Below, piece by piece: positions 4,763-63,932 of a stretch of DNA of 64,000 nucleotides. Source of the stretch: a virus. Under the pieces are notes generated by a model. It worked only from the letters and a program-made list of their open reading frames with translations. It was not told the origin of the DNA and searched no databases. Each line of letters opens with the position of its first letter. The stretch's first letter is position 1. The position numbers and the translations under genes are program-made. The stretch is taken from the UHGV virus genome UHGV-0123226. One strand, 5' to 3'.

Positions 4763-5167
4763 CTACAGGTTTGCAAGGGACACAAATAGTTGCTAGGGAT
4801 GCAGTAGTAACTACCTGATTCATACTAGTCGAGGTTAGGTATATTGCTCTATCCCATCATATGACGATAAGAACATTAACCAGATCTCTGCGGCAGCTGC
4901 TTACGCACGAGAGCAATTCCTAAACTCATAGAGTAGCAGCTAGGTACGTTTAGGATAAACTTAATCAATTGTTTTTGCTGGTGTTTGATTGATTGGTCAC
5001 TGTGGTGGAATATAGACCTTACAAGGTGCAAATCCTTGCCAGTGACATAATCATTTTAGCCGTGAAAGTCTGCGAAAGCTACATCCTGAAGGGAAAACAT
5101 TCTGACGAGAGTGTGTAAAGGTTAATTTGATTTATTAGCAATTGCTAGAAGGTCGCTCCTTCTGGTT

Positions 5168-5240
5168 TGGCGTGTAGCATTGTGGTAATGCAACTGATTA
5201 CGTGTGAGATAAGATGCGGGTTCGAATCCTGTCACGCCAA
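5168..5240 (+). ncRNA. tRNA-like element (acceptor stem, D-arm and canonical T-arm GGTTCGAATCC; no anticodon stem foldable by hand)
   Basis: GGCGTG/CACGCC acceptor pairing, T8, D-stem GCAT/ATGC with a GG loop, and a T-arm GCGGG-TTCGAAT-CCTGT. No 5-bp anticodon stem and no encoded CCA. Followed by a GTAGC-ata-GCTAC hairpin and a T-run. Confidence 0.3.
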
Positions 5241-5360
5241 TAGGTAGCATAGCTACTTAAATAAATTAGGAAACGTCAATAGATGTTTCTATCCTTCACG
5301 AGAGGCATCCACTTGCTGGGTGTCTCTTTTTATACATAAAATTACATAGGAGGTGAGGTC

Positions 5361-24909: not shown

Positions 24910-26211
24910 ATGAAAAAGAAAATTTTAGTAGGAGCGCTTGTCGCTCTATTTTTTATGCCTTTAAATGTATTAGCTGCAAGAGGCGATCAAGGTGTGGATT
25001 GGGCGATTTATCAAGGTGAACAAGGTCGCTTTGGCTATGCACATGATAAATTTACTATCGCTCAAATTGGCGGCTACAATGCTAGCGGTATTTATGAACA
25101 ATACACATATAAAACGCAAGTGGCAAGTGCTATTGCCCAAGGTAAACGTGCGCATACCTATATTTGGTATGACACTTGGGGAAACATGGACATTGCGAAA
25201 ACAACAATGGATTACTTTTTGCCACGTATTCAAACGCCTAAAAATTCCATCGTTGCATTAGATTTTGAACATGGAGCGTTGGCTAGTGTTCCAGATGGAT
25301 ATGGAGGATATGTAAGTTCAGATGCCGAAAAAGCAGCAAATACAGAGACAATTTTGTACGGTATGCGCAGAATCAAACAGGCTGGCTATACTCCAATGTA
25401 TTACAGCTATAAGCCATTTACACTAAATCATGTAAACTATCAACAAATCATCAAAGAGTTTCCTAACTCTTTATGGATTGCTGCGTATCCTATTGATGGT
25501 GTGTCACCAAATCCATTGTATGCTTATTTCCCAAGCATGGATGGTATTGGCATTTGGCAATTCACATCCGCTTATATTGCAGGTGGTTTAGATGGTAACG
25601 TAGATTTAACAGGAATTACGGATAGTGGTTATACAGATACAAATAAACCAGAAACGGATACGCCAGCAACAGATGCAGGCGAAGAAATTGAAAAAATACC
25701 TAATTCTGATGTTAAAGTTGGCGATACCGTCAAAGTGAAATTTAGTGTTGATGCTTGGGCAACTGGCGAAGCTATTCCAGATTGGGTTAAAGGAAACAGT
25801 TATAAAGTGCAAGAAGCAACTGGAAGCAGAGTATTGCTAGAAGGCATTTTGTCATGGATTAGCAAAGGTGATATTGAACTATTACCAGATGCAACAGTTG
25901 TCCCTGATAAGCAACCAGAAACAACACATATAGTTCAACATGGCGAAACATTATCAAGCATTGCTTACCAATACGGTACCGATTATCAAACTTTAGCTTC
26001 GTTAAATGGATTGGCTAATCCAAACCTTATTTACCCTGGACAAGTTTTGAAAGTAAATGGATCAGCAACAAGTAATGTTTACACAGTCCAGTTGGGTGAT
26101 AATTTATCAAGTATAGCGGCTAAACTTGGCACGACTTATCAAACATTGGCAGCTTTAAACGAATTAGCAAATCCTAACTTGATTTATCCGGGTCAAACGT
26201 TGAACTATTAA
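24910..26211 (+). CDS. endolysin: signal peptide + GH25 muramidase + 2x LysM
   Basis: N-terminal Sec-like signal ([22 protein letters not shown]), a GH25 core ([16 protein letters not shown]) and two C-terminal LysM repeats ([13 protein letters not shown]..., [13 protein letters not shown]...). Confidence 0.9.
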
Positions 26212-26371: not shown

Positions 26372-27742
26372 TTGAAGAAACATTCTAGGAAAATAAAAAA
26401 TAATAAAGAACTAACTTTACTGATTATAGGAATTTGGATTGTTTTTTTTCTTTTTAATATGTATATGCCGACAGTGAGAGCTGATGACTTAGTTTACGTA
26501 AATAGATTAGATAAATTAGGATATTTGGGTGCTTCAATAGAACATTATAAAACATGGAGTTCAAGAGTTATTATTGAATTATTCTTGATGTTTTTTTCTA
26601 AACACCTTATGTTATGGAAATTATTAAATTCAACGATAATGACAGGTTCTATAGTATTGCTTTGCAAATATGTTTTCAACAAGTTATATTCTAAAAATTT
26701 GCTACTAGTTTTTTCTATATTTTGTCTAATTCCTTTAACAATAATGGGGGAAACTGGTTGGATCGCTACTACGTTAAATTACCAATGGCCAGTAGCTTTT
26801 GGTTTGCTAGCTTTTTACCCTTTTTTTCAAGTGTTAAGCGGTAAAGAAATAAGCAAAAAAATATATTGTATAAGTATTCCTTTATTAATATTCTCTGCTA
26901 ACCAAGAGCAAGTTAACGTATGCTTTTTTGTTTTAACTAGTCTAGTAAGTTTGTATTTATTATTTAGAAGAAATTATAATTATAAGTTATCGGCGCTTTC
27001 CATAATAAGTTTAGTGGAATTATTTTTTTCTTTGACGGCCCCAGGGAACACATTGCGGGCTGCTCATGAAATTAATAAATGGTTTCCTGAATACAAAAAA
27101 TTTAACTTTGTGAATAAATTAGACCTTGGTATATCATCATTTGGAAAACCGTTTTTTTTAGACACGAATATTTTATTTTTATTACTCTTTTTTATATTAT
27201 TCTTTCTATCTTATAAGAAATGTCAGAACTATTATATACGTATATTAACCGCATTGCCGCTTTTTCTAAATTTGATTACTTTTTTCGGAAACACAATGGG
27301 ACAAAGTTTTACTTATGTCAATGGAAATAAAAGATCAATGATTTGGAATAGCAACAATCTGGGGAATATCTTTACAAGATTTGGAACTAAACTATCAATT
27401 TATCACCCTGGAACTTGGGTAGCTACTTTTATAGTTTTGGGATTATTATTATGTTTAATTATAGGAATTTATATAAGTTTTGATGATAAAAAATCTGCTG
27501 TTTTTTTAGTAGTGTTAATGATGATGGGTTTTTGTTCAAGATTAATTATGGGTTTTTCTCCTACTGTTTGGGCTTCAGGTATGCGAACGTACTATATACT
27601 TTTTATTGTCGTCGCTATAATAGTGTTAAAGGGAATTAACGAGATGAAGAAAAACATGAGCTTGCAAAAGAAAGAACTATTATCATTTAGTTTAACTTTA
27701 TTAGGTATCTGCACCTTAGTGTTAACGGTGCTGAATAGATAA
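26372..27742 (+). CDS. polytopic integral membrane protein (10 or more TM helices), AT-rich moron
   Basis: 456 aa, strongly hydrophobic throughout, lower GC than the flanking phage genes, own promoter and terminator. Lies between the prophage 1 lysis genes and the prophage 2 integrase. Confidence 0.6.
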   Translation: MKKHSRKIKNNKELTLLIIGIWIVFFLFNMYMPTVRADDLVYVNRLDKLGYLGASIEHYKTWSSRVIIELFLMFFSKHLMLWKLLNSTIMTGSIVLLCKYVFNKLYSKNLLLVFSIFCLIPLTIMGETGWIATTLNYQWPVAFGLLAFYPFFQVLSGKEISKKIYCISIPLLIFSANQEQVNVCFFVLTSLVSLYLLFRRNYNYKLSALSIISLVELFFSLTAPGNTLRAAHEINKWFPEYKKFNFVNKLDLGISSFGKPFFLDTNILFLLLFFILFFLSYKKCQNYYIRILTALPLFLNLITFFGNTMGQSFTYVNGNKRSMIWNSNNLGNIFTRFGTKLSIYHPGTWVATFIVLGLLLCLIIGIYISFDDKKSAVFLVVLMMMGFCSRLIMGFSPTVWASGMRTYYILFIVVAIIVLKGINEMKKNMSLQKKELLSFSLTLLGICTLVLTVLNR

Positions 27743-27748
27743 ATTAAA

Positions 27749-27788
27749 AGCTCTACTTCTCAATCACGGGAAGTAGAGCTTTTTTTTG
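27749..27788 (+). terminator. rho-independent terminator
   Basis: AGCTCTACTTC...GAAGTAGAGCT stem followed by a T8 run. Confidence 0.8.
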
Positions 27789-27982
27789 TTTATTCGGTAT
27801 GATTTATATATCTATTCGCTTGCCTTTTTTAATTTTTTGATGTAGATTTTATCTTGTTGTTATAGTCTATTTTGCTAATTTGAATTAAAATAATATTACG
27901 CAAACCCTTGTGAGTTCTAGTCTGTCTAAATATGGTGTTGCAGAAAAATTACACCGTGAAACTAAATAATTTATTTGAATAT

Positions 27983-28025
27983 AGCCTAGAATCCTTGCTT
28001 TATAAGGGTTCTAGGCTCTTTTTTT
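27983..28025 (+). terminator. orphan rho-independent terminator in the inter-prophage junction
   Basis: AGCCTAGAA..TTCTAGGCT stem followed by a T7 run; no upstream ORF. Confidence 0.5.
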
Positions 28026-28071
28026 GTTGTTAGGAATTTACTGATTTAGTTATTGATGTAGATTTGCTATT

Positions 28072-29253
28072 TTAAAAATTTACATAGCTACTGAAAGCAT
28101 CTGTTGCTTCTTTAGTAACTTCATCAGAAACATGAGTGTAAGTATCCATAGTTATTTGTAAAGAAGAATGTCCTAAACGTTCTTGGATTATTTTAGACCT
28201 AACATTATCTGATTCGAATAATAATGTTGCGTGGGTATGCCGAAAACCATGACAACCAATAGAATGTAAGTTAGCCTTTTCTGCCAATCTTTTGGAACGT
28301 TGGTAAATGTCTTGACTTCGGAACATGGTACCATCAATTTTTGTAAAAATGAGTTGTGTTTTAAACCCACCTTTTTTCATTAAAGCTTCACGCTGTCTAA
28401 GTTTCCATTTTTTTAAGATATAAGCAGTCTTGTCATCAAAAGAAATTTTACGAATAGAATTGGGAGTTTTAGGATCGTTTATAGTCAATCCATTTGTACT
28501 GATAGCAGTAGTTTTATTTATATTAACTACCTGCTTTTTTAAATCAATATCATTCCAATTCAATGCTAAAGCTTCACCAACACGTATACCAGTAAAAGAA
28601 AGTAAGCGAAAAATAGCACAGTCTAAGTCAGCATAGTATTTTAGAACTAAACTTTCTTCTTTGGCTTGATTGGCAATACTATCAGCTGTATTTAAGAAAT
28701 GTTCCAGTTCGTCTTTTGTATAGAACTTTCTTTTTGTATTCTTTTCTATTTTCTTTAGCGAACTAGGCTTAGTTATTTTCTTAAATGGGTTTGAATCTAT
28801 TATTTCTAAACCAACAGCATAGTCACAAACACGAGAAGCATAACTCAAAAGTACTTTTCCCATTTCATTCTTTTTATACCATTCATTAACAGATTTTTGC
28901 ACGATCTTGACTGTTAAACGCTCAAGTCGCATTTTCCCAAATGTGGGTAAAATGTGTTTTTTCATACGTCGTTCAGTAGCTATGAATGTGGATTCCCTAA
29001 CTGTTTTTTTGTATTCGTCCAACCACATATAATAAACTTCTTCAAAAGTGGTTAAACGAGTATGCTCGTTAGCTAGGTTTCCATTATCAAAATCTAATTT
29101 TTTTTGATTAAGCTTGAGCTGTGCTTCTTTTTTTGTATTACAGTTTCTGATAGTGACATTAATTTGTTTTCCAGTTAAATAATCTACGCCTAAATAGGCA
29201 GTTACTTTCCAGTATTTTTTTCCTTTTTTTGTATATTGTTTAAAAGTTGCCAT
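28072..29253 (-). CDS. int: tyrosine recombinase (phage integrase)
   Basis: 393 aa; C-terminal catalytic region with HGFRHTHATLL and the LGHSSLQITMDTYTH motif containing the catalytic Tyr. Confidence 0.9.
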   Translation of the reverse strand: MATFKQYTKKGKKYWKVTAYLGVDYLTGKQINVTIRNCNTKKEAQLKLNQKKLDFDNGNLANEHTRLTTFEEVYYMWLDEYKKTVRESTFIATERRMKKHILPTFGKMRLERLTVKIVQKSVNEWYKKNEMGKVLLSYASRVCDYAVGLEIIDSNPFKKITKPSSLKKIEKNTKRKFYTKDELEHFLNTADSIANQAKEESLVLKYYADLDCAIFRLLSFTGIRVGEALALNWNDIDLKKQVVNINKTTAISTNGLTINDPKTPNSIRKISFDDKTAYILKKWKLRQREALMKKGGFKTQLIFTKIDGTMFRSQDIYQRSKRLAEKANLHSIGCHGFRHTHATLLFESDNVRSKIIQERLGHSSLQITMDTYTHVSDEVTKEATDAFSSYVNF

Positions 29254-29374
29254 TGTTTATCCTTTCCACTTGGGCAAGCGAATAGAAGGAATGACAAATT
29301 TCTAGCACCTCCTTATTAGATTTTAAAGCCCCTAGCATGAATCGAACACGCTAGAACTCACCAGAGAGGGGGAT

Positions 29375-30247
29375 TTATACTTCAATTAAATGGCTACCAT
29401 CTGTTGGAGTTAACAATGCTTTTATCCCTTCATACAAACTCAAACAAAATGGAATTGCTGTCCAATAAAAAATAAAATATAGTAATCCTCTTTTAAATTT
29501 TTTAGCATAAAACCAATGAATTCCAAACATACCCAAGAATATTGCTAGTATCGAAAATATAAATTTATTTACTATAACTTTATTAGTAAATGAGTTAGCT
29601 TCATTGTTCAAATTACTTATATTTTCTTCTTTCTCTAAGAATTGACTAATTTCAACTTTAATATAAAATTTTCCAAATCCTTCTTTTATTATTGTTTCAA
29701 CTTCAGTCGGTTCATTTAAAATAATTCCTGAATTTTTTGGTATATATCCTATCTTTCCACTTCTATTAATTTTTGCATTTTTTGGAGTAGGATGATTAGA
29801 ATATACAGCTATAGCATTGGGATCATACTTATTATCAGGCTCTGGAACTAATGTTAAATTAAGATTGTGATAATGGTAACCGTACGTATTCCAAGTTTCT
29901 CCATTATCTTTTAAAACGTTTCTTAAAATTCGTTCAGCATCTGTATATTGAGTTCCTACTACTTCTACAATATAAGAGTTATTTGATTCATAGTTTTTGT
30001 TATTAACGTCATAATTAGTTTTATAATTCTCTTTATTTGAATTATTTATAGATGATAAAGGATTAACTCCGAAAGTAGTTTTATTGTAAATTTTGTTATA
30101 TGCTGCTTTTTTTGGATCTTTAATCCAACCAGTTCCTTTTTTACCATAACCAGGTATCGTTGCTTTTTTAATAGATCTTTTGGCTTTACCTGTTGTTCTA
30201 GCTTTGATAGATTTTTTTATGCTTGGTTTTCTTGGTCCTATTTTCAT
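29375..30247 (-). CDS. HIRAN-domain protein with Lys-rich N-terminus and C-terminal TM2-domain membrane anchor
   Basis: VVGTQY...LTLVPEPDNKYDPNAIAVY...GKIGYIP matches the HIRAN signature. C-terminal LAIFLGMFGIHWFYAKKFKRGLLYFIFYW matches the TM2 domain (GxxGxHxFY). N-terminal PRKPSIKKSIKARTTGKAKRSIKK is basic and low-complexity. Confidence 0.6.
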   Translation of the reverse strand: MKIGPRKPSIKKSIKARTTGKAKRSIKKATIPGYGKKGTGWIKDPKKAAYNKIYNKTTFGVNPLSSINNSNKENYKTNYDVNNKNYESNNSYIVEVVGTQYTDAERILRNVLKDNGETWNTYGYHYHNLNLTLVPEPDNKYDPNAIAVYSNHPTPKNAKINRSGKIGYIPKNSGIILNEPTEVETIIKEGFGKFYIKVEISQFLEKEENISNLNNEANSFTNKVIVNKFIFSILAIFLGMFGIHWFYAKKFKRGLLYFIFYWTAIPFCLSLYEGIKALLTPTDGSHLIEV

Positions 30248-30262
30248 TTTTATCCCTTCCTT

Positions 30263-30910
30263 CTATAAGCCCATTTTTACATAACTAATTAATTTTGTTG
30301 AATCATAGTTATATCTATATTGATTAATAGCTGATCTAGCTAAGCATGGATTTAATAAAAATATTTTTGTTAAAAAATCATATAGCCTTACGTATAGTGC
30401 TGCAGCACTCATTTCAAATTCTTCGCAAATTTGACGGAAAGACATTCGTTTTCTTAAACATTCTTTCAATGCTTCATTGTTTATTAAAGCAAGGGATGCA
30501 AATATATTAGCTCTTATTTCTTTTGGTTCATCTTCGCTAGTGTATCCTTTTCCAGTAATTAAATCTGAAAAACTTTGAGACTTGCATTCCTTATTCATAT
30601 CAAAAAAATAATGTGCAGATTCATGAAGTATTGAGAAATTTTGCCTTCCTTTAACCATTGTTGAATTGTAGGAAATTCCGCATTTATCGTGAAATCTTAT
30701 TATGTTTCCTGAAAATATTTTTCTTGAAACATCACCGAAACTATAGGGAATTATGTCAACATTTTCTACGTCAATCATATAATCTTTGTAGTGTTTCCAT
30801 CTTAACTCTTTTAATTCAATTCCATAGTAATTGGCAACTTTTTCAATAATAATATATGTCTGGTCATGATATTCAAAATAAGTATCGTAGTCTAAATACA
30901 TAGGGGTCAT
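30263..30910 (-). CDS. ImmA/IrrE-family zinc metallopeptidase
   Basis: HESAHYFFD (HExxH) and a gene order paired with the XRE repressor. Confidence 0.8.
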   Translation of the reverse strand: MTPMYLDYDTYFEYHDQTYIIIEKVANYYGIELKELRWKHYKDYMIDVENVDIIPYSFGDVSRKIFSGNIIRFHDKCGISYNSTMVKGRQNFSILHESAHYFFDMNKECKSQSFSDLITGKGYTSEDEPKEIRANIFASLALINNEALKECLRKRMSFRQICEEFEMSAAALYVRLYDFLTKIFLLNPCLARSAINQYRYNYDSTKLISYVKMGL

Positions 30911-30914
30911 CCAA

Positions 30915-31256
30915 TCATTTGTTTTTAAGTCTTGATTTCATGAATTCCAAGTACTCTTTTAATTCTTCCCTGAGCTGATCTTTTTCGGATTCGGTTAAAT
31001 CTTCTGTATTTACACGGAAGAAAGTTGTAATTTCATCTTCCTCTAAGCTGTCAGAATTTGGATTTTCAGTACGACCTAGTAGATAATCGGTAGTTACATC
31101 AAAATATTCAGCAACTTTTTCTAAGGTTTCTGCTTTAGGACTACTTTTTTTCCATGAATATATTGAGTTACGACTTAAATTCAATTTTTCTGCTAAATCA
31201 AATACGGACAATCCTTGTTTTTTTGCTAGATACGAAATCCTTTCAAATAAGGTCAT
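30915..31256 (-). CDS. XRE-family HTH repressor (CI-like)
   Basis: N-terminal HTH (QGLSVFDLAEKLNLSRNSIYSWKK); transcribed divergently from a cro-like gene. Confidence 0.85.
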   Translation of the reverse strand: MTLFERISYLAKKQGLSVFDLAEKLNLSRNSIYSWKKSSPKAETLEKVAEYFDVTTDYLLGRTENPNSDSLEEDEITTFFRVNTEDLTESEKDQLREELKEYLEFMKSRLKNK

Positions 31257-31290
31257 TTTAGCATATTCTCCTTTGTTGAACAGTTATTTA

Positions 31291-31496
31291 ATACAAAACT
31301 TTTAACTTTTTTGTTTACAAATTAAAAGTTTTGTATTATCCTGTTCTTGTAAGTTATTTAGATAGAAAAAAGCAAATTAAAAACACTACCTTTAAAGCAT
31401 TAAGTTTGGCGACCGAGTGCAAAATAAAGGCTTTACTATGTTTTTTTCTATACACCGATAGTACAAAACTTTTAACTTTGTGTCAATAGTTTTGTA
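31291..31496. promoter_or_regulatory. genetic-switch operator region: four copies of TACAAAACTTTTAA (two direct, two inverted)
   Basis: Sites at 31292-31305, 31322-31335 (inverted), 31462-31475 and 31488-31496 (inverted, partial), between the divergent repressor and cro-like genes. Confidence 0.6.
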
Positions 31497-31549
31497 GTTT
31501 ATTTTCTATCTAATTGACTTACTAAATACTAAAGAAAGGAGCATCGAAA

Positions 31550-31741
31550 ATGCCAGATACATCAGTAAGCCGCCAAAAAATTCGTGATTACTTTGAAAGT
31601 AAGGGGATTTCTTTAGTCACTGTAGCAACATATTTTAACATTCCAAAACAGGACTTAAACGATTATCTTTCTGGAAAAAATCAAAGTAAAAAGGCTCACG
31701 AAACACTAACGGCTATTATTGAATACTACAAAATCAGATAG
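31550..31741 (+). CDS. Cro-like small DNA-binding protein
   Basis: 63-aa first gene of the rightward early operon, opposite the repressor. Confidence 0.5.
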   Translation: MPDTSVSRQKIRDYFESKGISLVTVATYFNIPKQDLNDYLSGKNQSKKAHETLTAIIEYYKIR

Positions 31742-31744
31742 GAG

Positions 31745-32023
31745 GTGATAGTAATGGAAGTGATTTTAACTCCAGAAAATGAAGCTTCTCTAAGAGATTT
31801 TGTACACGGAATTATTGTTGATGAAATAGAAAAAGCACGAAGAGATACCGCAGTTGATAAGCGAGTCTTAAATCAAACAGAGATTGCAAAATATTTCAAT
31901 GTTTCCACAACAACAATAAGGGAATGGGAGAAGCTAGGGCTTCCGCATGGATCAGTAAGTAAACAAGGGAAGTTCTACGACAAAGAAGAGTGTCGCAGAT
32001 GGCTTCTATCACAAAAAAGATAA
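31745..32023 (+). CDS. excisionase-like HTH protein
   Basis: LNQTEIAKYFNVSTTTIREWEKLGLPHG, a MerR/Xis-type helix-turn-helix. Confidence 0.45.
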   Translation: MIVMEVILTPENEASLRDFVHGIIVDEIEKARRDTAVDKRVLNQTEIAKYFNVSTTTIREWEKLGLPHGSVSKQGKFYDKEECRRWLLSQKR

Positions 32024-32026
32024 ATC

Positions 32027-32260
32027 TTGGGCAAGCGAAATTTAAGGAGGTTTTACAAAATGATTATTTGCTACAAAGGCGAAGATTTAAAAGTGCAAGA
32101 GACTTGTAGCACCTATGACAACATTTCAGTTGTGTTGTTTAAAGGGCAAAAACGAGTGTATAACCATCGAACGAATGAAATTGTTGGCGGCGATGAACGC
32201 TTGCCAGAAGCAAAAGCAATTCGAAATTTTAACGGTTCTGTGATGGTATTAGGGAGGTGA
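32027..32260 (+). CDS. hypothetical phage protein
   Basis: 77-aa ORF with RBS aaggagg. Confidence 0.4.
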   Translation: MGKRNLRRFYKMIICYKGEDLKVQETCSTYDNISVVLFKGQKRVYNHRTNEIVGGDERLPEAKAIRNFNGSVMVLGR

Positions 32261-32472
32261 AAGCAATGAAAAAAGTTTATCAATCTCGTTTACTCGGAGC
32301 GTTCCTCGTTTTGGCTATATTTGGCGCTGTATTAGCGTTAAGCACTAATATAGGTTGGTTAGTGGCTATAGCAGGCAGTGCCAGTCTTACGTGGTTTGCG
32401 TATGACACAGAGGTCAAGTGGGATTTATACGAAAAATCTATAGGAAGGAGAAAAAACTATGTTAACAGCTAA
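32257..32472 (+). CDS. small two-TM membrane protein
   Basis: Two hydrophobic helices (LLGAFLVLAIFGAVLAL, GWLVAIAGSASLTWFAY). Confidence 0.4.
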   Translation: MKAMKKVYQSRLLGAFLVLAIFGAVLALSTNIGWLVAIAGSASLTWFAYDTEVKWDLYEKSIGRRKNYVNS

Positions 32473-32653
32473 TGAAGCTTTTTTAGTACGTGAAGCAGTA
32501 CGAGAAAAGATTGAAACGTTAAGAGATGCAGTACGTCACGAAAGTGCAAAGCATCCGACAATGCAAGACCTCCGCACGCTAAAGCATTTTCAAGCAGAAC
32601 TAGAACGTTACGAAGTTGCTTATCAAAAAATGCTCAATGAAGTGGGGTGCTAG
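32459..32653 (+). CDS. hypothetical phage protein
   Basis: 64-aa ORF, overlapping start. Confidence 0.35.
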   Translation: MLTANEAFLVREAVREKIETLRDAVRHESAKHPTMQDLRTLKHFQAELERYEVAYQKMLNEVGC

Positions 32654-33664: not shown

Positions 33665-33954
33665 GTGGACCAGAAAAGAAAGTTGAAAACCAGATAAAAA
33701 AATATCTCGATTCTTTAGGTGCCTATTATTTAAAAGTGCATGGTTCTATGTATCAACCAGCAGGAACACCTGATGTTTTGGCTTGTGTTAATGGCCATTT
33801 TGTTGCTATTGAAGTAAAGCGGCCAAGTGGTGGGGTTGTCAGTGCATTACAAAAAAGCAAGCTGAAAAGAATCGAACAAGCAGGAGGGATAAGTATTGTC
33901 GCAAGAAGTGTGGACGATGTATCCACAATGCTCAAGCAAAGCAATGTTATATAA
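33661..33954 (+). CDS. VRR-NUC domain nuclease
   Basis: DVLACVNGHFVAIEVKRP is the PD-(D/E)xK motif arrangement of the VRR-NUC family. Confidence 0.75.
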   Translation: MSGPEKKVENQIKKYLDSLGAYYLKVHGSMYQPAGTPDVLACVNGHFVAIEVKRPSGGVVSALQKSKLKRIEQAGGISIVARSVDDVSTMLKQSNVI

Positions 33955-35158
33955 CTTTCAAAAGAAAATAATTGATTCAATCGATGCCAATTATCTATTA
34001 GCAATGGATACAGGAACAGGAAAAACAATCACTGCAATTCATCAATATTTGAAATATAGCAGAGGAGAACCAATTTTAATTGTTGCTCCACCGCAGAAAA
34101 TCAAAGAAGGCGGATGGCGAAGAGATATACAGGCCGTGTGTGATTTCTACAAAATTGAAATTTCATTTACTGAACTAAGTTATGGAAAATTAACAGATAG
34201 TTACAAACTGTATAAAGGGTGGTTTGTCATTTTTGACGAAGCACATTATATCAAAAATCCAACTTCACAACGTGGTAAAGCAGCTGCAAAACTAACAAAA
34301 CAATCCAGTCATTTTCTTCTTTTAACAGCAACGCCAGCTAGTAACGGCTGGGAAGATACGTACAACTATTTCATCATGTTTGGTTATTTCAAATCAAAAA
34401 AAGAAATGAATGACCAGCATGCAAAATGGGGAACAATGTATCTTGGTACACGACGAGTACCTAAAATTGAAGGCTGGATTCATGAAGAAAAATTGTATTC
34501 AAAATATGATTCTTTCACTATTTCAATATCGAAAGATGAAGCATTAGATTTGCCGCCATTGATTTTTGAAGATGTGAAATTCAAAAAGAGTAAAGAGTAT
34601 ATGACTGTGGCCAAAGATAGGGTACTAGGTGATGAAGAATATGATACACCATCTAAATTGGCTCATGGGTTGAGATACTATGCGAACCAAAAAGACAAAT
34701 TAGACTATGCCCAAATGCTTTGTGAAGGTACAGAAAACAACATCATTATCTTCTATTACTATCAAAAAGAAATTGAAGCATTGAAAGAAAAAATTAAAAA
34801 TAAAACATTTTTTGAAGTAAACGGCAAGCACTCTAATTTACCACCAAAGCAGTCTTGGAAATCATTGAAGAATAGTGTCACTTTTGTTCAATATATGGCT
34901 GGTAGCGCAGGAATTGAACTTCAATACGCGAATACAGTTATTTTCTATACACCAACTTATTCTTATCAAGATTATAGTCAAGCGCTGGGCCGAGCTTATC
35001 GTAATGGCCAAACTAAGAAAGTAACGGTTTATCGTTTTATAACACAACAGACAATTGAACAAGCCGTTTACCAAGCCTTAGAAAACAAAGAAGATTTTTC
35101 AGAAGAATTGTATATGACTACAAGAGTGGGAAGTGAAGGAAGAATAGATGGAAGATAA
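33896..35158 (+). CDS. SNF2-family helicase / DNA-dependent ATPase
   Basis: Motif I (DTGTGKT), motif II (FDEAHYIKN), LLLTATP, and C-terminal helicase motifs (QALGRAYRNGQ). The true start is probably an internal Met near 33947. Confidence 0.85.
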   Translation: MSQEVWTMYPQCSSKAMLYNFQKKIIDSIDANYLLAMDTGTGKTITAIHQYLKYSRGEPILIVAPPQKIKEGGWRRDIQAVCDFYKIEISFTELSYGKLTDSYKLYKGWFVIFDEAHYIKNPTSQRGKAAAKLTKQSSHFLLLTATPASNGWEDTYNYFIMFGYFKSKKEMNDQHAKWGTMYLGTRRVPKIEGWIHEEKLYSKYDSFTISISKDEALDLPPLIFEDVKFKKSKEYMTVAKDRVLGDEEYDTPSKLAHGLRYYANQKDKLDYAQMLCEGTENNIIIFYYYQKEIEALKEKIKNKTFFEVNGKHSNLPPKQSWKSLKNSVTFVQYMAGSAGIELQYANTVIFYTPTYSYQDYSQALGRAYRNGQTKKVTVYRFITQQTIEQAVYQALENKEDFSEELYMTTRVGSEGRIDGR

Positions 35159-61525: not shown

Positions 61526-62827
61526 ATGAAAAACAAAATTTTAGTAGGAGCGATAGTCGCTCTATTTTTTATGCCTTTGAATGTATTTGCTGAAAAAGGT
61601 GACCAAGGCGTTGACTGGGCTATTTATCAGGGGGAACAAGGTCGTTTTGGCTACGCACATGATAAATTCGCTATTGCCCAGATTGGTGGCTACAATGCTA
61701 GCGGTATTTATGAACAATACACATATAAAACGCAAGTAGCAAGTGCTATTGCCCAAGGTAAACGTGCGCATACCTATATTTGGTATGACACTTGGGGAAA
61801 CATGGACATTGCGAAAACAACAATGGATTACTTTTTGCCACGTATTCAAACGCCTAAAAATTCCATCGTTGCATTAGATTTTGAACATGGAGCGTTGGCT
61901 AGTGTTCCAGATGGATATGGAGGATATGTAAGTTCAGATGCCGAAAAAGCAGCAAATACAGAGACAATTTTGTACGGTATGCGCAGAATCAAACAGGCTG
62001 GCTATACTCCAATGTATTACAGCTATAAGCCATTTACACTAAATCATGTAAACTATCAACAAATCATCAAAGAGTTTCCTAACTCTTTATGGATTGCTGC
62101 GTATCCTATTGATGGTGTGTCACCAAATCCATTGTATGCTTATTTCCCAAGCATGGATGGTATTGGCATTTGGCAATTCACATCCGCTTATATTACTGGT
62201 GGGTTAGATGGTAACGTAGACTTAACAGGTATTACTGATAATGGCTACACAGATACCAATAAGCCAGAAACGGACACGCCAGCAACAGATGCAGGTGAAG
62301 AAATCGAAAAAACACCGAATTCTGATGTTAAAGTTGGCGATACGGTCAAAGTGAAATTTAACGTAGATGCTTGGGCAACAGGCGAAGCTATTCCAGATTG
62401 GGTAAAAGGAAACAGCTATAAAGTACAAGAAGTAACTGGAAGCAGAGTATTGTTAGAAGGTATCCTGTCATGGATTAGCAAAGGCGATATTGAATTATTG
62501 CCAGATGCAACAGCTGTTCCTGATAAACAACCAGAATCTACTCACGTAGTTCAATATGGTGAAACATTATCCAGCATTGCGTATCAATATGGAACAGACT
62601 ATCAAATCTTAGCTTCGCTAAATGGATTGTCTAATCCTAATTTGATTTACCCTGGCCAAGTTTTAAAAGTCAATGGATCAGCAGTAAGCAACGCTTATAC
62701 AGTCCAATATGGTGATAATTTATCAAGTATTGCGGCTAAACTTGGCACGACTTATCAAGCTTTAGCACAACGGAACGGATTAGCTAATCCTAACTTAATT
62801 TATCCTGGTCAAACATTGAACTATTGA
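61526..62827 (+). CDS. endolysin: signal peptide + GH25 + 2x LysM (near-identical to 24910..26211)
   Basis: Same architecture as the prophage 1 lysin, with long stretches of identical nucleotides. Confidence 0.9.
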
Positions 62828-63083: not shown

Positions 63084-63539
63084 ATGAATAAAAAATATAG
63101 TATTTTTGAAATAGCTGATTGGTTTTTGAATAAAGAGTCAATGACTCCTAAAAAGTTACAAAAACTTTGTTACTATGCACAAGCGTGGAACAATGCACTT
63201 TTAGATGACAGCATAATAGATGATTCTGAATTTCAGGCTTGGGCGCATGGACCTGTTTCTCCAGAATTGTATAATAAATATAGAGAATATAGATGGAATT
63301 CTATTCCTAAATGTACTTCACCTGCTGCAATAGATAATCAAACTGTGGATGTTCTAGAATCAGTTTGGATTACTTATGGTGATAAGTCAGCAAATGAGCT
63401 TGAAGCATTGACTCATACAGAATTACCTTGGAAACAAGCAAGATTAAGAGCTGGGGTTTCAGAAGGAGATAGTTGTAGGGAAAAAATATCTACAGAAGAC
63501 ATGGCTAATTATTATAAAAGTGTATATGTAGGTGACTAA
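63084..63539 (+). CDS. Panacea-domain (DUF4065) antitoxin-like protein
   Basis: PKKLQKLCYYAQAWNNALL and GPVSPELY match Panacea/SocA-like antitoxin domains. Confidence 0.55.
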   Translation: MNKKYSIFEIADWFLNKESMTPKKLQKLCYYAQAWNNALLDDSIIDDSEFQAWAHGPVSPELYNKYREYRWNSIPKCTSPAAIDNQTVDVLESVWITYGDKSANELEALTHTELPWKQARLRAGVSEGDSCREKISTEDMANYYKSVYVGD

Positions 63540-63542
63540 TAG

Positions 63543-63932
63543 TTGGCGAAGAAATTAACAAGAGATGTAGTTGTAGAAAATGGCTCTTTTTTAGATAGAA
63601 AATCAATGAAATTTCGATTTTGTATTCAAGAGTGTTTGGACAATAAATACTGCTTCAAAAAAATGGATAAAGGTTCTTTGAAAGAATTAGATAAATTTAT
63701 AGCTGAAACAGCAGGAAAAAATTTATCAATTACAGAGGTCGATAAATTATTTTTGCGGACCAAAGGCCGAGGAAGTAATTATGAAGAAGTTGAAATTAAT
63801 GGGATCAAAAGAGAAGTTTATCATTATGGCAAAGACCAAAATCCATTTAGGGTATTTGGTTATTATAATGAAGACGGGTATTTAGTGATATACAGGATTG
63901 ATCCAAAACATAAGTCTCATAAATGCAAATAG
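63543..63932 (+). CDS. putative toxin partner (RelE/HigB-like C-terminal signature)
   Basis: FRVFGYYNEDGYLVIYRIDPKHKSHK resembles the RelE/ParE-fold C-terminus; TTG start 4 nt after the upstream stop. Confidence 0.3.
   Translation: MAKKLTRDVVVENGSFLDRKSMKFRFCIQECLDNKYCFKKMDKGSLKELDKFIAETAGKNLSITEVDKLFLRTKGRGSNYEEVEINGIKREVYHYGKDQNPFRVFGYYNEDGYLVIYRIDPKHKSHKCK

What the first reader, a model, noticed from the sequence alone, without database searches (positions are those of the whole stretch)
29375..30247. Membrane-anchored HIRAN-domain protein (Lys-rich N-terminus + HIRAN + TM2 anchor) at the integrase/repressor moron site: candidate DNA-end-sensing superinfection exclusion or defence protein
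The 290-aa minus-strand ORF sits between int and the ImmA/CI pair, the classic position of prophage-encoded exclusion and defence genes. Its middle region carries a clear HIRAN signature (VVGTQY...LTLVPEPDNKYDPNAIAVY...GKIGYIP); HIRAN domains bind 3' ssDNA ends. The N-terminus is a basic, low-complexity K-rich segment. The C-terminus is an unmistakable TM2 domain membrane anchor (LAIFLGMFGIHWFYAKKFKRGLLYFIFYW). A membrane-tethered DNA-end-binding module fits a protein that intercepts the incoming linear phage genome during injection. I do not know of a characterised defence or Sie system with this architecture.
Basis: partly seen in the sequence, partly recalled or inferred. Interest (0 to 1): 0.8.

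Follow-up and report, generated by a model that had tools for sequence, protein, structure and literature searches.

The report
Membrane-tethered HIRAN protein of Enterococcus prophage
An Enterococcus prophage carries, between its repressor genes and its integrase, a real but functionally untested gene for a DNA-end-binding (HIRAN) domain tied to the membrane, preceded by a highly conserved, undescribed 62-residue module shared by more than a thousand prophage protein families.

Summary

One correction: the Lys-rich N-terminus is not low complexity. It is a strongly conserved about 62-aa module found in 1252 cluster representatives, with no Pfam or PDB match. It is fused to very diverse partners, nearly always with transmembrane segments.

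The defence or exclusion reading is plausible but untested:
- The slot is a cargo hotspot. A 91.5%-identical regulatory module in phage SEsuP-1 carries two lipoproteins there.
- Sister proteins tether a HIRAN domain or a DEDD 3'-5' exonuclease to the membrane.
- No known defence model matches.
- A stand-alone N-module (Dub35A orf4) gave no phage resistance when cloned.
- The topology is ambiguous.

Transmembrane HIRAN proteins in lysogeny modules have already been noticed and named: thaL in pneumococcal prophages (2025), with no function assigned. This is a permuted Enterococcus variant of that uncharacterised kind.

The parts
29375..30247 (-). Complete ORF X, 290 aa plus stop codon: N-module, linker, HIRAN, linker, TM2 hairpin, short tail
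   Evidence: A 100% identical protein, P0001, is present in the public collection.
30062..30247 (-). Conserved basic N-terminal module (aa 1-62; 19 K+R, net charge +18); no family assigned
   Evidence: It hits PHROGs 10934, 3374, 29766 and 4721, all of unknown function. It is found in 1252 cluster representatives. It has 16 invariant positions across 149 sequences. It has no Pfam or PDB match. It is modelled as helices at pLDDT 72-89.
29981..30061 (-). Asn/Ser/Lys-rich flexible linker (aa 63-89)
   Evidence: pLDDT is below 50 in both models, and the segment is variable in alignment A1.
29633..29980 (-). HIRAN domain (aa 90-205), including the conserved PEPDNxYDxNAI and GKIGY(I/L)P motifs
29411..29569 (-). 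TM2 domain (aa 227-279): two hydrophobic helices joined by the basic loop AKKFKRG
   Evidence: Pfam 38.8 bits. Helices 228-248 and 253-279. Loop charge is +2 to +4 in all 17 homologues.
30254..30263 (-). Ribosome-binding site (GAAGGAAGGG) in the 15-nt gap after the immA stop, which implies co-transcription with cI-immA
   Evidence: Sequence read directly. No terminator-like site was found between immA and X.
30263..30910 (-). ImmA/IrrE-type metalloprotease (Peptidase_M78), the upstream operon partner
30915..31256 (-). CI-like HTH_3 repressor, first gene of the lysogeny operon
   Evidence: A promoter-like site, TTGACA-17-TACTAT, lies at 31486-31458.
28072..29253 (-). Tyrosine integrase, downstream neighbour; marks the left end of the right-hand prophage

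Best explanation
X is an accessory ('moron') gene of an Enterococcus prophage. It is transcribed in the lysogen together with the repressor and ImmA. The protein is held at the cytoplasmic membrane by its C-terminal TM2 hairpin, and the basic N-module and the HIRAN domain face the cytoplasm. There the HIRAN pocket captures free 3'-OH DNA ends that appear next to the membrane. These are most plausibly the ends of a superinfecting phage genome as it is injected, and possibly incoming single strands from transformation or conjugation. Capture prevents the incoming DNA from circularising, replicating or recombining. In short, it would be an entry-point exclusion or defence function that protects the lysogen and its prophage. 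Shown here: the gene, its domains, its fold, its operon position, the conservation of that position, and cargo exchange at the slot. Inferred: expression, topology, DNA-end binding, and any effect on phages.
For: - Domains and fold are confirmed.
- The HIRAN motif N139-x-Y141-D142-x-N-A-I aligns with HLTF N91-P-Y93-D94-K-N-A-I (the HLTF sequence and the role of D94 in 3'-OH contact are recalled from memory). N139 is invariant and D142 nearly invariant in 17 homologues.
- The order HTH, Peptidase_M78, X, integrase is kept in E. faecium (six distinct contigs) and in E. ratti and E. durans. A HIRAN-TM2 form without the N-module sits between an S24-type repressor and an integrase.
- The slot is an exchange hotspot that elsewhere holds lipoproteins, an annotated Abi gene, or Sfi21 orf203 'immunity region'.
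- Membrane tethering of 3'-end-directed modules recurs independently:
  - pneumococcal N-module, TM hairpin, HIRAN, with basic flanks on both sides of the hairpin, which indicates N-in/C-in;
  - clostridial N-module, TM, HIRAN, TPR;
  - six TM segments followed by HIRAN (P0048);
  - N-module, TM hairpin, DEDD RNase_T exonuclease.
- Net charge of +18 in the first 62 residues and no signal peptide argue for an N-terminus inside the cell.
Against: - No phenotype is known for any member.
- No PADLOC model matches beyond a weak partial hit to a candidate HIRAN protein.
- The stand-alone N-module of lactococcal phage Dub35A (orf4) gave no resistance to any tested phage when cloned.
- In all 17 HIRAN-TM2 homologues the loop between the two TM2 helices is basic (+2 to +4) and the flanks are neutral or acidic. 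By the local positive-inside rule this would put HIRAN outside the cell.
- Other genes at the equivalent slot in pneumococcal prophages (szaL, spaL) affect prophage activation rather than exclusion.
- The Pfam match covers only the first 57 of 96 HIRAN profile positions. Foldseek against the PDB found nothing significant.
Confidence: 0.35

Rival explanations
1. X is a single-protein abortive-infection sensor and effector. HIRAN detects 3' DNA ends generated by phage replication or recombination, or by host-DNA breakdown. It then switches the TM2 hairpin into an oligomeric, membrane-permeabilising state that kills the infected lysogen before phage release. In this reading TM2 is the effector, not an anchor.
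For: The membrane hairpin is the element shared by the minimal forms. N-module plus TM hairpin makes a 149-aa protein in IPP16. HIRAN plus TM2 alone makes proteins of 200-230 aa. The TM2 segment is the most conserved part of the HIRAN-TM2 family, with invariant G239, G242, W245, Y247 and A248, which is more than an inert anchor would need. Sensor domains fused to two TM helices are a common layout of defence effectors (general knowledge). The slot also hosts an annotated Abi gene in IPP16.
Against: There is no evidence of toxicity or pore formation for any bacterial TM2 protein, and the function of TM2 is unknown. The protein would be made constitutively from the repressor operon, with no antitoxin-like partner. 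No PADLOC effector model matches.
Confidence: 0.2
2. X serves the prophage's own life cycle rather than exclusion. It senses ssDNA or 3' ends at the membrane, arising from DNA uptake, competence or damage. It then modulates induction, lysis timing, or protection of the prophage from deletion by incoming homologous DNA ('chromosomal curing').
For: In pneumococcal prophages the genes at the same slot (szaL, spaL) changed the response to mitomycin C and competence peptide and changed the release of phage DNA. The HIRAN gene thaL was listed as part of that lysogeny module (PMC12637031). A close pneumococcal counterpart shares the N-module at 70% identity. Transforming ssDNA enters Gram-positive cells 3' end first (recalled from the literature), which would suit a membrane-tethered 3'-end binder.
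Against: thaL itself was not tested. MM1 ORF1, a zinc-ribbon membrane protein at the slot of an attMM1 phage and possibly SpaL-like, lacks the N-module, so homology of SzaL or SpaL with X is not established. Enterococci are not known to be naturally transformable (general knowledge). Nothing links HIRAN to the ImmA or CI switch.
Confidence: 0.2
3. The HIRAN domain (together with the N-module) is extracytoplasmic. If so, the protein acts on the cell surface, for example by binding extracellular or incoming DNA in the wall zone. Alternatively the domain is used for protein binding, and the protein is a lysogenic-conversion factor unrelated to DNA ends.
For: The TM2 loop is consistently basic and its flanks are acidic or neutral in all 17 homologues. 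Eukaryotic TM2D proteins have an N-out, loop-in topology (recalled). Other N-module proteins carry domains that look extracellular, such as Thr-rich linkers followed by an Ada-like Zn module (P0114). HIRAN has been proposed to act as an antitoxin-type protein partner in HipA-like systems.
Against: There is no signal peptide. The first 62 residues have a net charge of +18, and 226 residues would have to cross the membrane as an N-tail. The pneumococcal and exonuclease relatives have strongly basic flanks on both sides of their hairpins, which places the N-module and the cargo domain inside the cell.
Confidence: 0.1

Closest known systems
[quoted passage not shown]
   Same: It occupies the same slot, immediately after the repressor (and ImmA) genes and before int. 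It has the same N-terminal module, 70% identical over 64 aa. It has a HIRAN domain and a membrane hairpin. It is of unknown function.
   Different: The domain order is permuted: N-module, TM hairpin, HIRAN in ThaL against N-module, HIRAN, TM2 here. The pneumococcal hairpin is not a TM2 domain. The HIRAN domains are only distantly alike, 42% over 31 aa. Whether the phiARI and IPP proteins are the published ThaL of phiRMV8 is inferred from the description, not from the sequence.
Superinfection-exclusion genes of Gram-positive temperate phages at the int/repressor slot (Sfi21 orf203; lactococcal Sie2009; TP-J34 Ltp)
   Same: Genomic position and orientation match: Sfi21 has int, orf203, metalloprotease, cI. 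All are membrane-associated and expressed in the lysogen (PMC7693887).
   Different: There is no sequence similarity to orf203. Sie2009 is described as having a hydrophobic N-terminus, unlike the basic N-module. None of them has a HIRAN or TM2 domain. Their known or presumed action is from the outer face of the membrane. Sie2009 and Ltp were not compared by sequence here.
HLTF/Rad5-type HIRAN domains and bacterial stand-alone HIRAN proteins (PDB 4xzg, 3k2y)
   Different: There is no fused SNF2 helicase or RING domain. Here the domain is membrane-tethered and has a roughly 20-residue helical insert (aa 103-123). The prophage does encode a separate SNF2-type helicase at 33896-35158, but in the replication module, and no link to X has been shown.
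PADLOC candidate PDC-M03 and HipA-like kinase/HIRAN (HipI) gene pairs
   Same: Both contain a HIRAN domain and are predicted, not proven, to be defence-associated.
   Different: There is only a 35-position partial match at E 0.0017. X has no kinase partner. Those proteins have no membrane segment.
N-module proteins of temperate Bacillota phages (PHROGs 10934, 3374, 29766, 4721; SM1 gp2, phiEf11, PhiS63 gp22, Dub35A orf4)
   Same: They share the 62-aa N-terminal module at 55-86% identity and sit at the same lysogeny-module position in most records.
   Different: The C-terminal parts are unrelated. In the 150 best representatives found with the N-module alone, only 6 have HIRAN, 10 have TM2, and 1 has both.

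Membership tests
HIRAN domain (Pfam PF08797) | Profile match above the curated gathering score | tested here: met
   33.1 bits against a cut-off of 24.7, E 5e-8, although only profile positions 3-57 of 96 are matched.
HIRAN domain (Pfam PF08797) | HIRAN beta-barrel-like fold | tested here: met
HIRAN domain (Pfam PF08797) | Conserved 3'-end pocket residues (Asn/Tyr/Asp of the NxYDxNAI motif) | tested here: inconclusive
   N139, Y141 and D142 align with HLTF N91, Y93 and D94, and N139 and D142 are conserved in 17 homologues. However, the HLTF sequence and the residue roles were recalled from memory. Y141 is His in some homologues, and HLTF R71 is not conserved.
HIRAN domain (Pfam PF08797) | Binding of free 3'-OH single-stranded DNA ends | not testable with these tools
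   This needs EMSA or fluorescence anisotropy with purified aa 88-206.
TM2 domain (Pfam PF05154) | Profile match above the gathering score, and two helices joined by a short loop | tested here: met
   38.8 bits against a cut-off of 27.9, covering profile positions 4-51 of 51. Helices 228-248 and 253-279.
ThaL-type lysogeny-module HIRAN membrane proteins | Encoded in the lysogeny module between the regulator genes and int | tested here: met
   The window order is cI, immA, X, int. The same order is seen in phiARI0285-2 and IPP45.
ThaL-type lysogeny-module HIRAN membrane proteins | HIRAN domain plus transmembrane segment(s) in one polypeptide | tested here: met
ThaL-type lysogeny-module HIRAN membrane proteins | Collinear homology over the whole length | tested here: not met
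   Only the N-module is collinear (70% identity). HIRAN and the membrane part are in the opposite order, and the pneumococcal hairpin is not TM2.
Known anti-phage defence systems (PADLOC-DB 2.0) | Significant match to a model of a validated system | tested here: not met
   The only hit is PDC-M03B, a candidate, at E 0.0017 and 15.9 bits over aa 130-172.
Superinfection exclusion proteins (Sie2009, Sfi21 orf203, Ltp) | Sequence homology to a characterised Sie protein | tested here: not met
   There is no similarity to Sfi21 orf203. Sie2009 and Ltp were not compared by sequence.
Superinfection exclusion proteins (Sie2009, Sfi21 orf203, Ltp) | Blocks DNA entry of heterologous phages without affecting adsorption | not testable with these tools
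   This needs plaque, adsorption and DNA-injection assays.
N-module family (PHROG 10934/3374/29766/4721) | Conserved N-terminal module with the invariant R6 P8 A16 R17 T18 T19 R24 P32 Y34 G35 G38 G40 P45 Y50 N51 Y54 | tested here: met
   PHROG E-values are 6e-32 to 5e-25. All the invariant residues are present in X.

The most novel reading that the evidence does not exclude
The 62-aa basic N-module would define a large, undescribed superfamily of membrane proteins encoded in the lysogeny modules of Bacillota prophages and other mobile elements. Each would have a constant cytoplasmic module, a membrane hairpin, and a polymorphic cargo domain. A subset carries 3'-end-directed cargo (HIRAN here, a DEDD 3'-5' exonuclease elsewhere). 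That subset would constitute a new class of defence that inspects or destroys DNA at its point of entry on the inner face of the membrane. X would be its Enterococcus representative.
Probability: 0.2. Interest if true: 0.8.

Novelty: new variant of a known kind. Interest (0 to 1): 0.5.

Why it matters
If X acts on DNA ends at the membrane, it would be a one-gene, prophage-borne barrier to incoming DNA in enterococci. Phage therapy and horizontal gene transfer are both clinically important in these bacteria. It would also be the first functional assignment for bacterial membrane-tethered HIRAN proteins and for a bacterial TM2 domain.

Independently of that, the N-module is one of the most conserved features of lysogeny modules across Streptococcus, Enterococcus, Lactococcus, Lactobacillus, Paenibacillus and Clostridium phages, yet it has no family entry, no structure and no function. 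Working out its partner would explain more than a thousand protein families at once.

Tried and rejected
- Profile searches of PDB sequences found nothing, both with the full-length alignment and with the N-module alignment.
- Pfam on 25 N-modules at E up to 10 gave only noise. NCBIfam gave only noise.
- Rfam and promoter/terminator scans of 27.0-32.5 kb found no RNA element or terminator that bears on the gene.
- A search for att-type direct repeats (exact 14-mers) between the int-proximal region and the rest of the window found none.
- I considered whether Sfi21 orf203, a known positional analogue, is homologous. It is not.
MM1 ORF1 at the equivalent slot lacks it, so I do not transfer their phenotypes to X.
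- Literature searches for HIRAN with TM2, prophage or anti-phage found no functional study. Many of the hits were the surname Hirano.
- The afdb50 structure library was unavailable.
- I rejected the idea that the short HIRAN-TM2 forms are mis-called truncations. In L004 the upstream ORF is an S24-type repressor C-terminus, with no N-module in any frame.

Full report
**1. What is there**

The minus-strand ORF 29375-30247 is real. It has an ATG start and a GAAGGAAGGG ribosome-binding site, and it begins 15 nt after the stop codon of the upstream gene. Its 290-aa product scores above Pfam's curated thresholds for two families:
- TM2: 38.8 bits against a cut-off of 27.9, aa 227-275.
- HIRAN: 33.1 bits against a cut-off of 24.7, aa 91-172.

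An AlphaFold2 model built on 17 homologues gives aa 90-205 a pLDDT of about 86-91.
- Foldseek against viral models returns 'HIRAN domain' proteins at probability 0.99-1.0.
- The motif PEPDN139-K-Y141-D142-P-N-A-I lines up with HLTF N91-P-Y93-D94-K-N-A-I (the HLTF sequence and the role of D94 in 3'-OH recognition are from memory). N139 is invariant and D142 nearly invariant in the family.
- Two helices, 228-248 and 253-279, form the TM2 hairpin.

**2. Context**

The neighbours, all on the minus strand, are an HTH_3 repressor (30915-31256), a Peptidase_M78/ImmA protein (30263-30910), X, and a tyrosine integrase (28072-29253).
- A promoter-like site lies upstream of the repressor, and no terminator-like site separates immA from X. 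X is therefore most likely part of the lysogeny transcript. This is an inference.
- The DNA is from Enterococcus. The flanks are 92-98% identical to E. faecalis phage records.
- The order HTH, M78, X, int is kept for the 70%-identical E. faecium protein P0004 on six distinct contigs, and in E. ratti and E. durans.
- Among one genome per species of 185,579 species, only four Enterococcus species carry a HIRAN-TM2 relative.
- The window itself contains two different prophages head to tail. The left one ends with a GH25/LysM lysin (24910-26211) and a DUF6056 membrane protein. The right one starts at this integrase and ends with a 90%-identical lysin at 61526-62827.

**3. The N-terminus is a conserved module, not low complexity**

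- Residues 1-62 hit four PHROGs of unknown function at E 6e-32 to 5e-25.
- A full HMMER scan of 1.84 billion cluster representatives, using aa 1-64 alone, found 1252 proteins at E<=1e-3 and 786 at E<=1e-10. The module sits at the extreme N-terminus in nearly all of the 150 listed.
- Those representatives are at most 50% identical overall, yet the module stays 65-92% identical, so the rest of each protein is essentially unrelated.
- Across 149 members, 16 positions are invariant: R6 P8 A16 R17 T18 T19 R24 P32 Y34 G35 G38 G40 P45 Y50 N51 Y54.
- With this deeper alignment AlphaFold models helices 10-30, 39-43 and 45-57 at pLDDT 72-89. With nine sequences covering this region it had been modelled as disordered.
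- There is no Pfam, NCBIfam or PDB counterpart.
- tblastn finds the module in 96 phage records: Streptococcus 47, Paenibacillus 21, Enterococcus 6, Lactococcus 5, plus Clostridium, Lactobacillus and others. In most records that start at the integrase it lies 1-3 kb from the record start, that is, beside the integrase.

**4. Architectures in the family**

In nearly all members the module is followed, after a basic linker, by one or two hydrophobic segments and then by variable sequence.

Pfam domains found among 149 members (most members have none):

| Domain | Members |
|---|---|
| HIRAN | 22 |
| TM2 | 19 |
| TPR | 5 |
| zinc ribbons | 4 |
| Ada-type Zn module | 3 |
| RNase_T exonuclease | 1 |
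| TerB_N | 1 |

This set is enriched for relatives of the query. Among the 150 representatives found with the module alone, HIRAN occurs in 6, TM2 in 10, and both in only one, the Enterococcus family.

Informative relatives:
- Pneumococcal 'HIRAN domain protein' (phiARI0285-2, IPP45). The order is N-module, hairpin LVFMFLGAIFLFLFPPLGFFLFITGFITYIIG flanked by basic stretches on both sides, then HIRAN. It is encoded after the repressor (and ImmA) genes and before int.
- P0144. The order is N-module, hairpin, complete DEDD RNase_T 3'-5' exonuclease. It lies in a small integrative element next to a Schlafen/AlbA-type ATPase gene.
- Clostridial proteins of about 500 aa with the order N-module, TM, HIRAN, TPR.
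- P0048, with six TM segments followed by a HIRAN of the same subfamily as X.
- IPP16, with the N-module plus hairpin only (149 aa), followed by an annotated Abi gene.
- Dub35A orf4, a stand-alone 66-aa N-module.
- HIRAN-TM2 proteins of 200-230 aa without the module, 51-59% identical to X. One sits between an S24-type repressor and an integrase.

HIRAN has therefore been joined to membrane segments several times in different orders. A second 3'-end-directed enzyme has been placed on the same scaffold.

**5. The slot is a cargo hotspot**

- Phage SEsuP-1 shares the immA-cI region at 91.5% nucleotide identity, but carries two lipoprotein genes between immA and int instead of X.
- Sfi21 has the same order, int, orf203, metalloprotease, cI, with orf203 annotated 'immunity region'. 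It is not homologous to X.
- The lactococcal literature describes Sie genes at this position (PMC7693887).

**6. What is already known**

- Pneumococcal phage records have annotated a 'HIRAN domain protein' here for years.
[quoted passage not shown] They did not test it.
- The unrelated-looking slot genes szaL and spaL changed the response to mitomycin C and to competence peptide, and changed phage release (PMC12637031). I could not obtain those sequences. MM1 ORF1 at the same slot is a TM plus zinc-ribbon protein without the N-module, so their phenotypes cannot be transferred to X.
- The one cloned N-module gene, Dub35A orf4, alone or with orf5, did not alter sensitivity of L. lactis 3107 to any tested phage.
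- PADLOC gives only a weak partial match to candidate PDC-M03B. HIRAN/HipA-like pairs are predicted, not proven, to be defence genes.
- No paper in the library links HIRAN with TM2 or assigns a function to a membrane HIRAN protein. The function of bacterial TM2 is unknown.

**7. Topology caveat**

- The first 62 residues carry 19 K+R (net charge +18) and there is no signal peptide. In the pneumococcal and exonuclease relatives both flanks of the hairpin are strongly basic. All of this places the N-module and the cargo domain in the cytoplasm.
- In all 17 HIRAN-TM2 proteins, however, the loop between the TM2 helices is basic (+2 to +4) and its flanks are neutral or acidic. Taken locally, that predicts the opposite orientation.
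- I favour a cytoplasmic HIRAN, at roughly 3 to 1, but this must be measured.

**8. Mechanism**

- Best-supported reading (confidence 0.35): X is a lysogen-expressed accessory protein that holds a 3'-end-binding HIRAN domain on the inner face of the membrane. There it acts on DNA that is entering the cell, giving exclusion of or defence against superinfecting phage, and possibly against other incoming DNA.
- Rivals:
  - an abortive-infection sensor and effector in which TM2 is the killing module (0.2);
  - a modulator of the prophage's own induction, lysis or stability (0.2);
  - an extracytoplasmic or non-DNA role (0.1).
- The remainder is unassigned.
- None of these explains what the invariant N-module does. 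That is the main unexplained observation.

**9. Verdict**

X is a permuted, Enterococcus-specific variant of an already noticed but uncharacterised kind, the lysogeny-module transmembrane HIRAN proteins. It sits inside a much larger undescribed N-module superfamily. Interest is moderate (0.5).

Noticed in passing
window 30062-30247 (aa 1-62 of X); also L001 3001-3192, L006 2501-2692, L017 2601-2801: This is a 62-aa basic N-terminal module with 16 invariant residues. It occurs in 1252 cluster representatives and 96 phage records across Bacillota. It is fused to unrelated C-terminal parts or stands alone (Dub35A orf4). It has no Pfam, NCBIfam or PDB counterpart, and its function is unknown.
   Followed up: partly
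window 1-27800 versus 28072-64000: Two different prophages lie head to tail. Their GH25+LysM lysins, 24910-26211 and 61526-62827 (both 433 aa), are 90% identical over 1512 nt. No att-type exact repeat of 14 nt or more was found between the int-proximal region and the rest of the window.
   Followed up: partly
window 26372-27742 (+): A 456-aa polytopic membrane protein of family DUF6056 (TTG start) follows the left prophage's lysin and is itself followed by two strong terminator-like hairpins (27746-27783, 27983-28017). It could be a lysogenic-conversion gene at the prophage's right end.
   Followed up: no
window 63084-63539 and 63543-63932 (+): A SocA/Panacea antitoxin-domain ORF (151 aa) is followed immediately by a 129-aa ORF with no Pfam match, downstream of the right prophage's lysin. 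They may form a PanA-type toxin-antitoxin pair at a second cargo slot.
   Followed up: no
window 33896-35158 (+): The same prophage encodes an SNF2-family helicase in its replication module. In eukaryotes HIRAN is fused to SNF2 helicases (HLTF/Rad5). No link between the two phage genes was examined.
   Followed up: no
L050 (Enterococcus phage SEsuP-1) 1356-2563: The immA-cI region is 91.5% identical to the window's, but the slot occupied by X holds two lipoprotein genes, one with a C-terminal LysM domain. This is a clear case of cargo exchange at the slot.
   Followed up: yes
L008 4377-5444 (metagenomic contig) = P0144: P0144 has the N-module, a TM hairpin and a complete RNase_T (DEDD) 3'-5' exonuclease. 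It lies in a small integrative element with a PemK toxin, an integrase and NikA-like genes, next to a Schlafen/AlbA_2-HATPase_c_4 gene. It is thus a membrane-tethered exonuclease on the same scaffold as X.
   Followed up: partly
window 5167-5241 (+): A tRNA-Arg (anticodon ACG) gene lies inside the left prophage.
   Followed up: no
L001 3906-4008: In pneumococcal phage phiARI0285-2 the record annotates a ctRNA_pT181-type antisense RNA overlapping the 3' end of the HIRAN gene. Nothing comparable was found in the window: Rfam at E<=1 over 27000-32500 gave only sub-threshold noise.
   Followed up: partly
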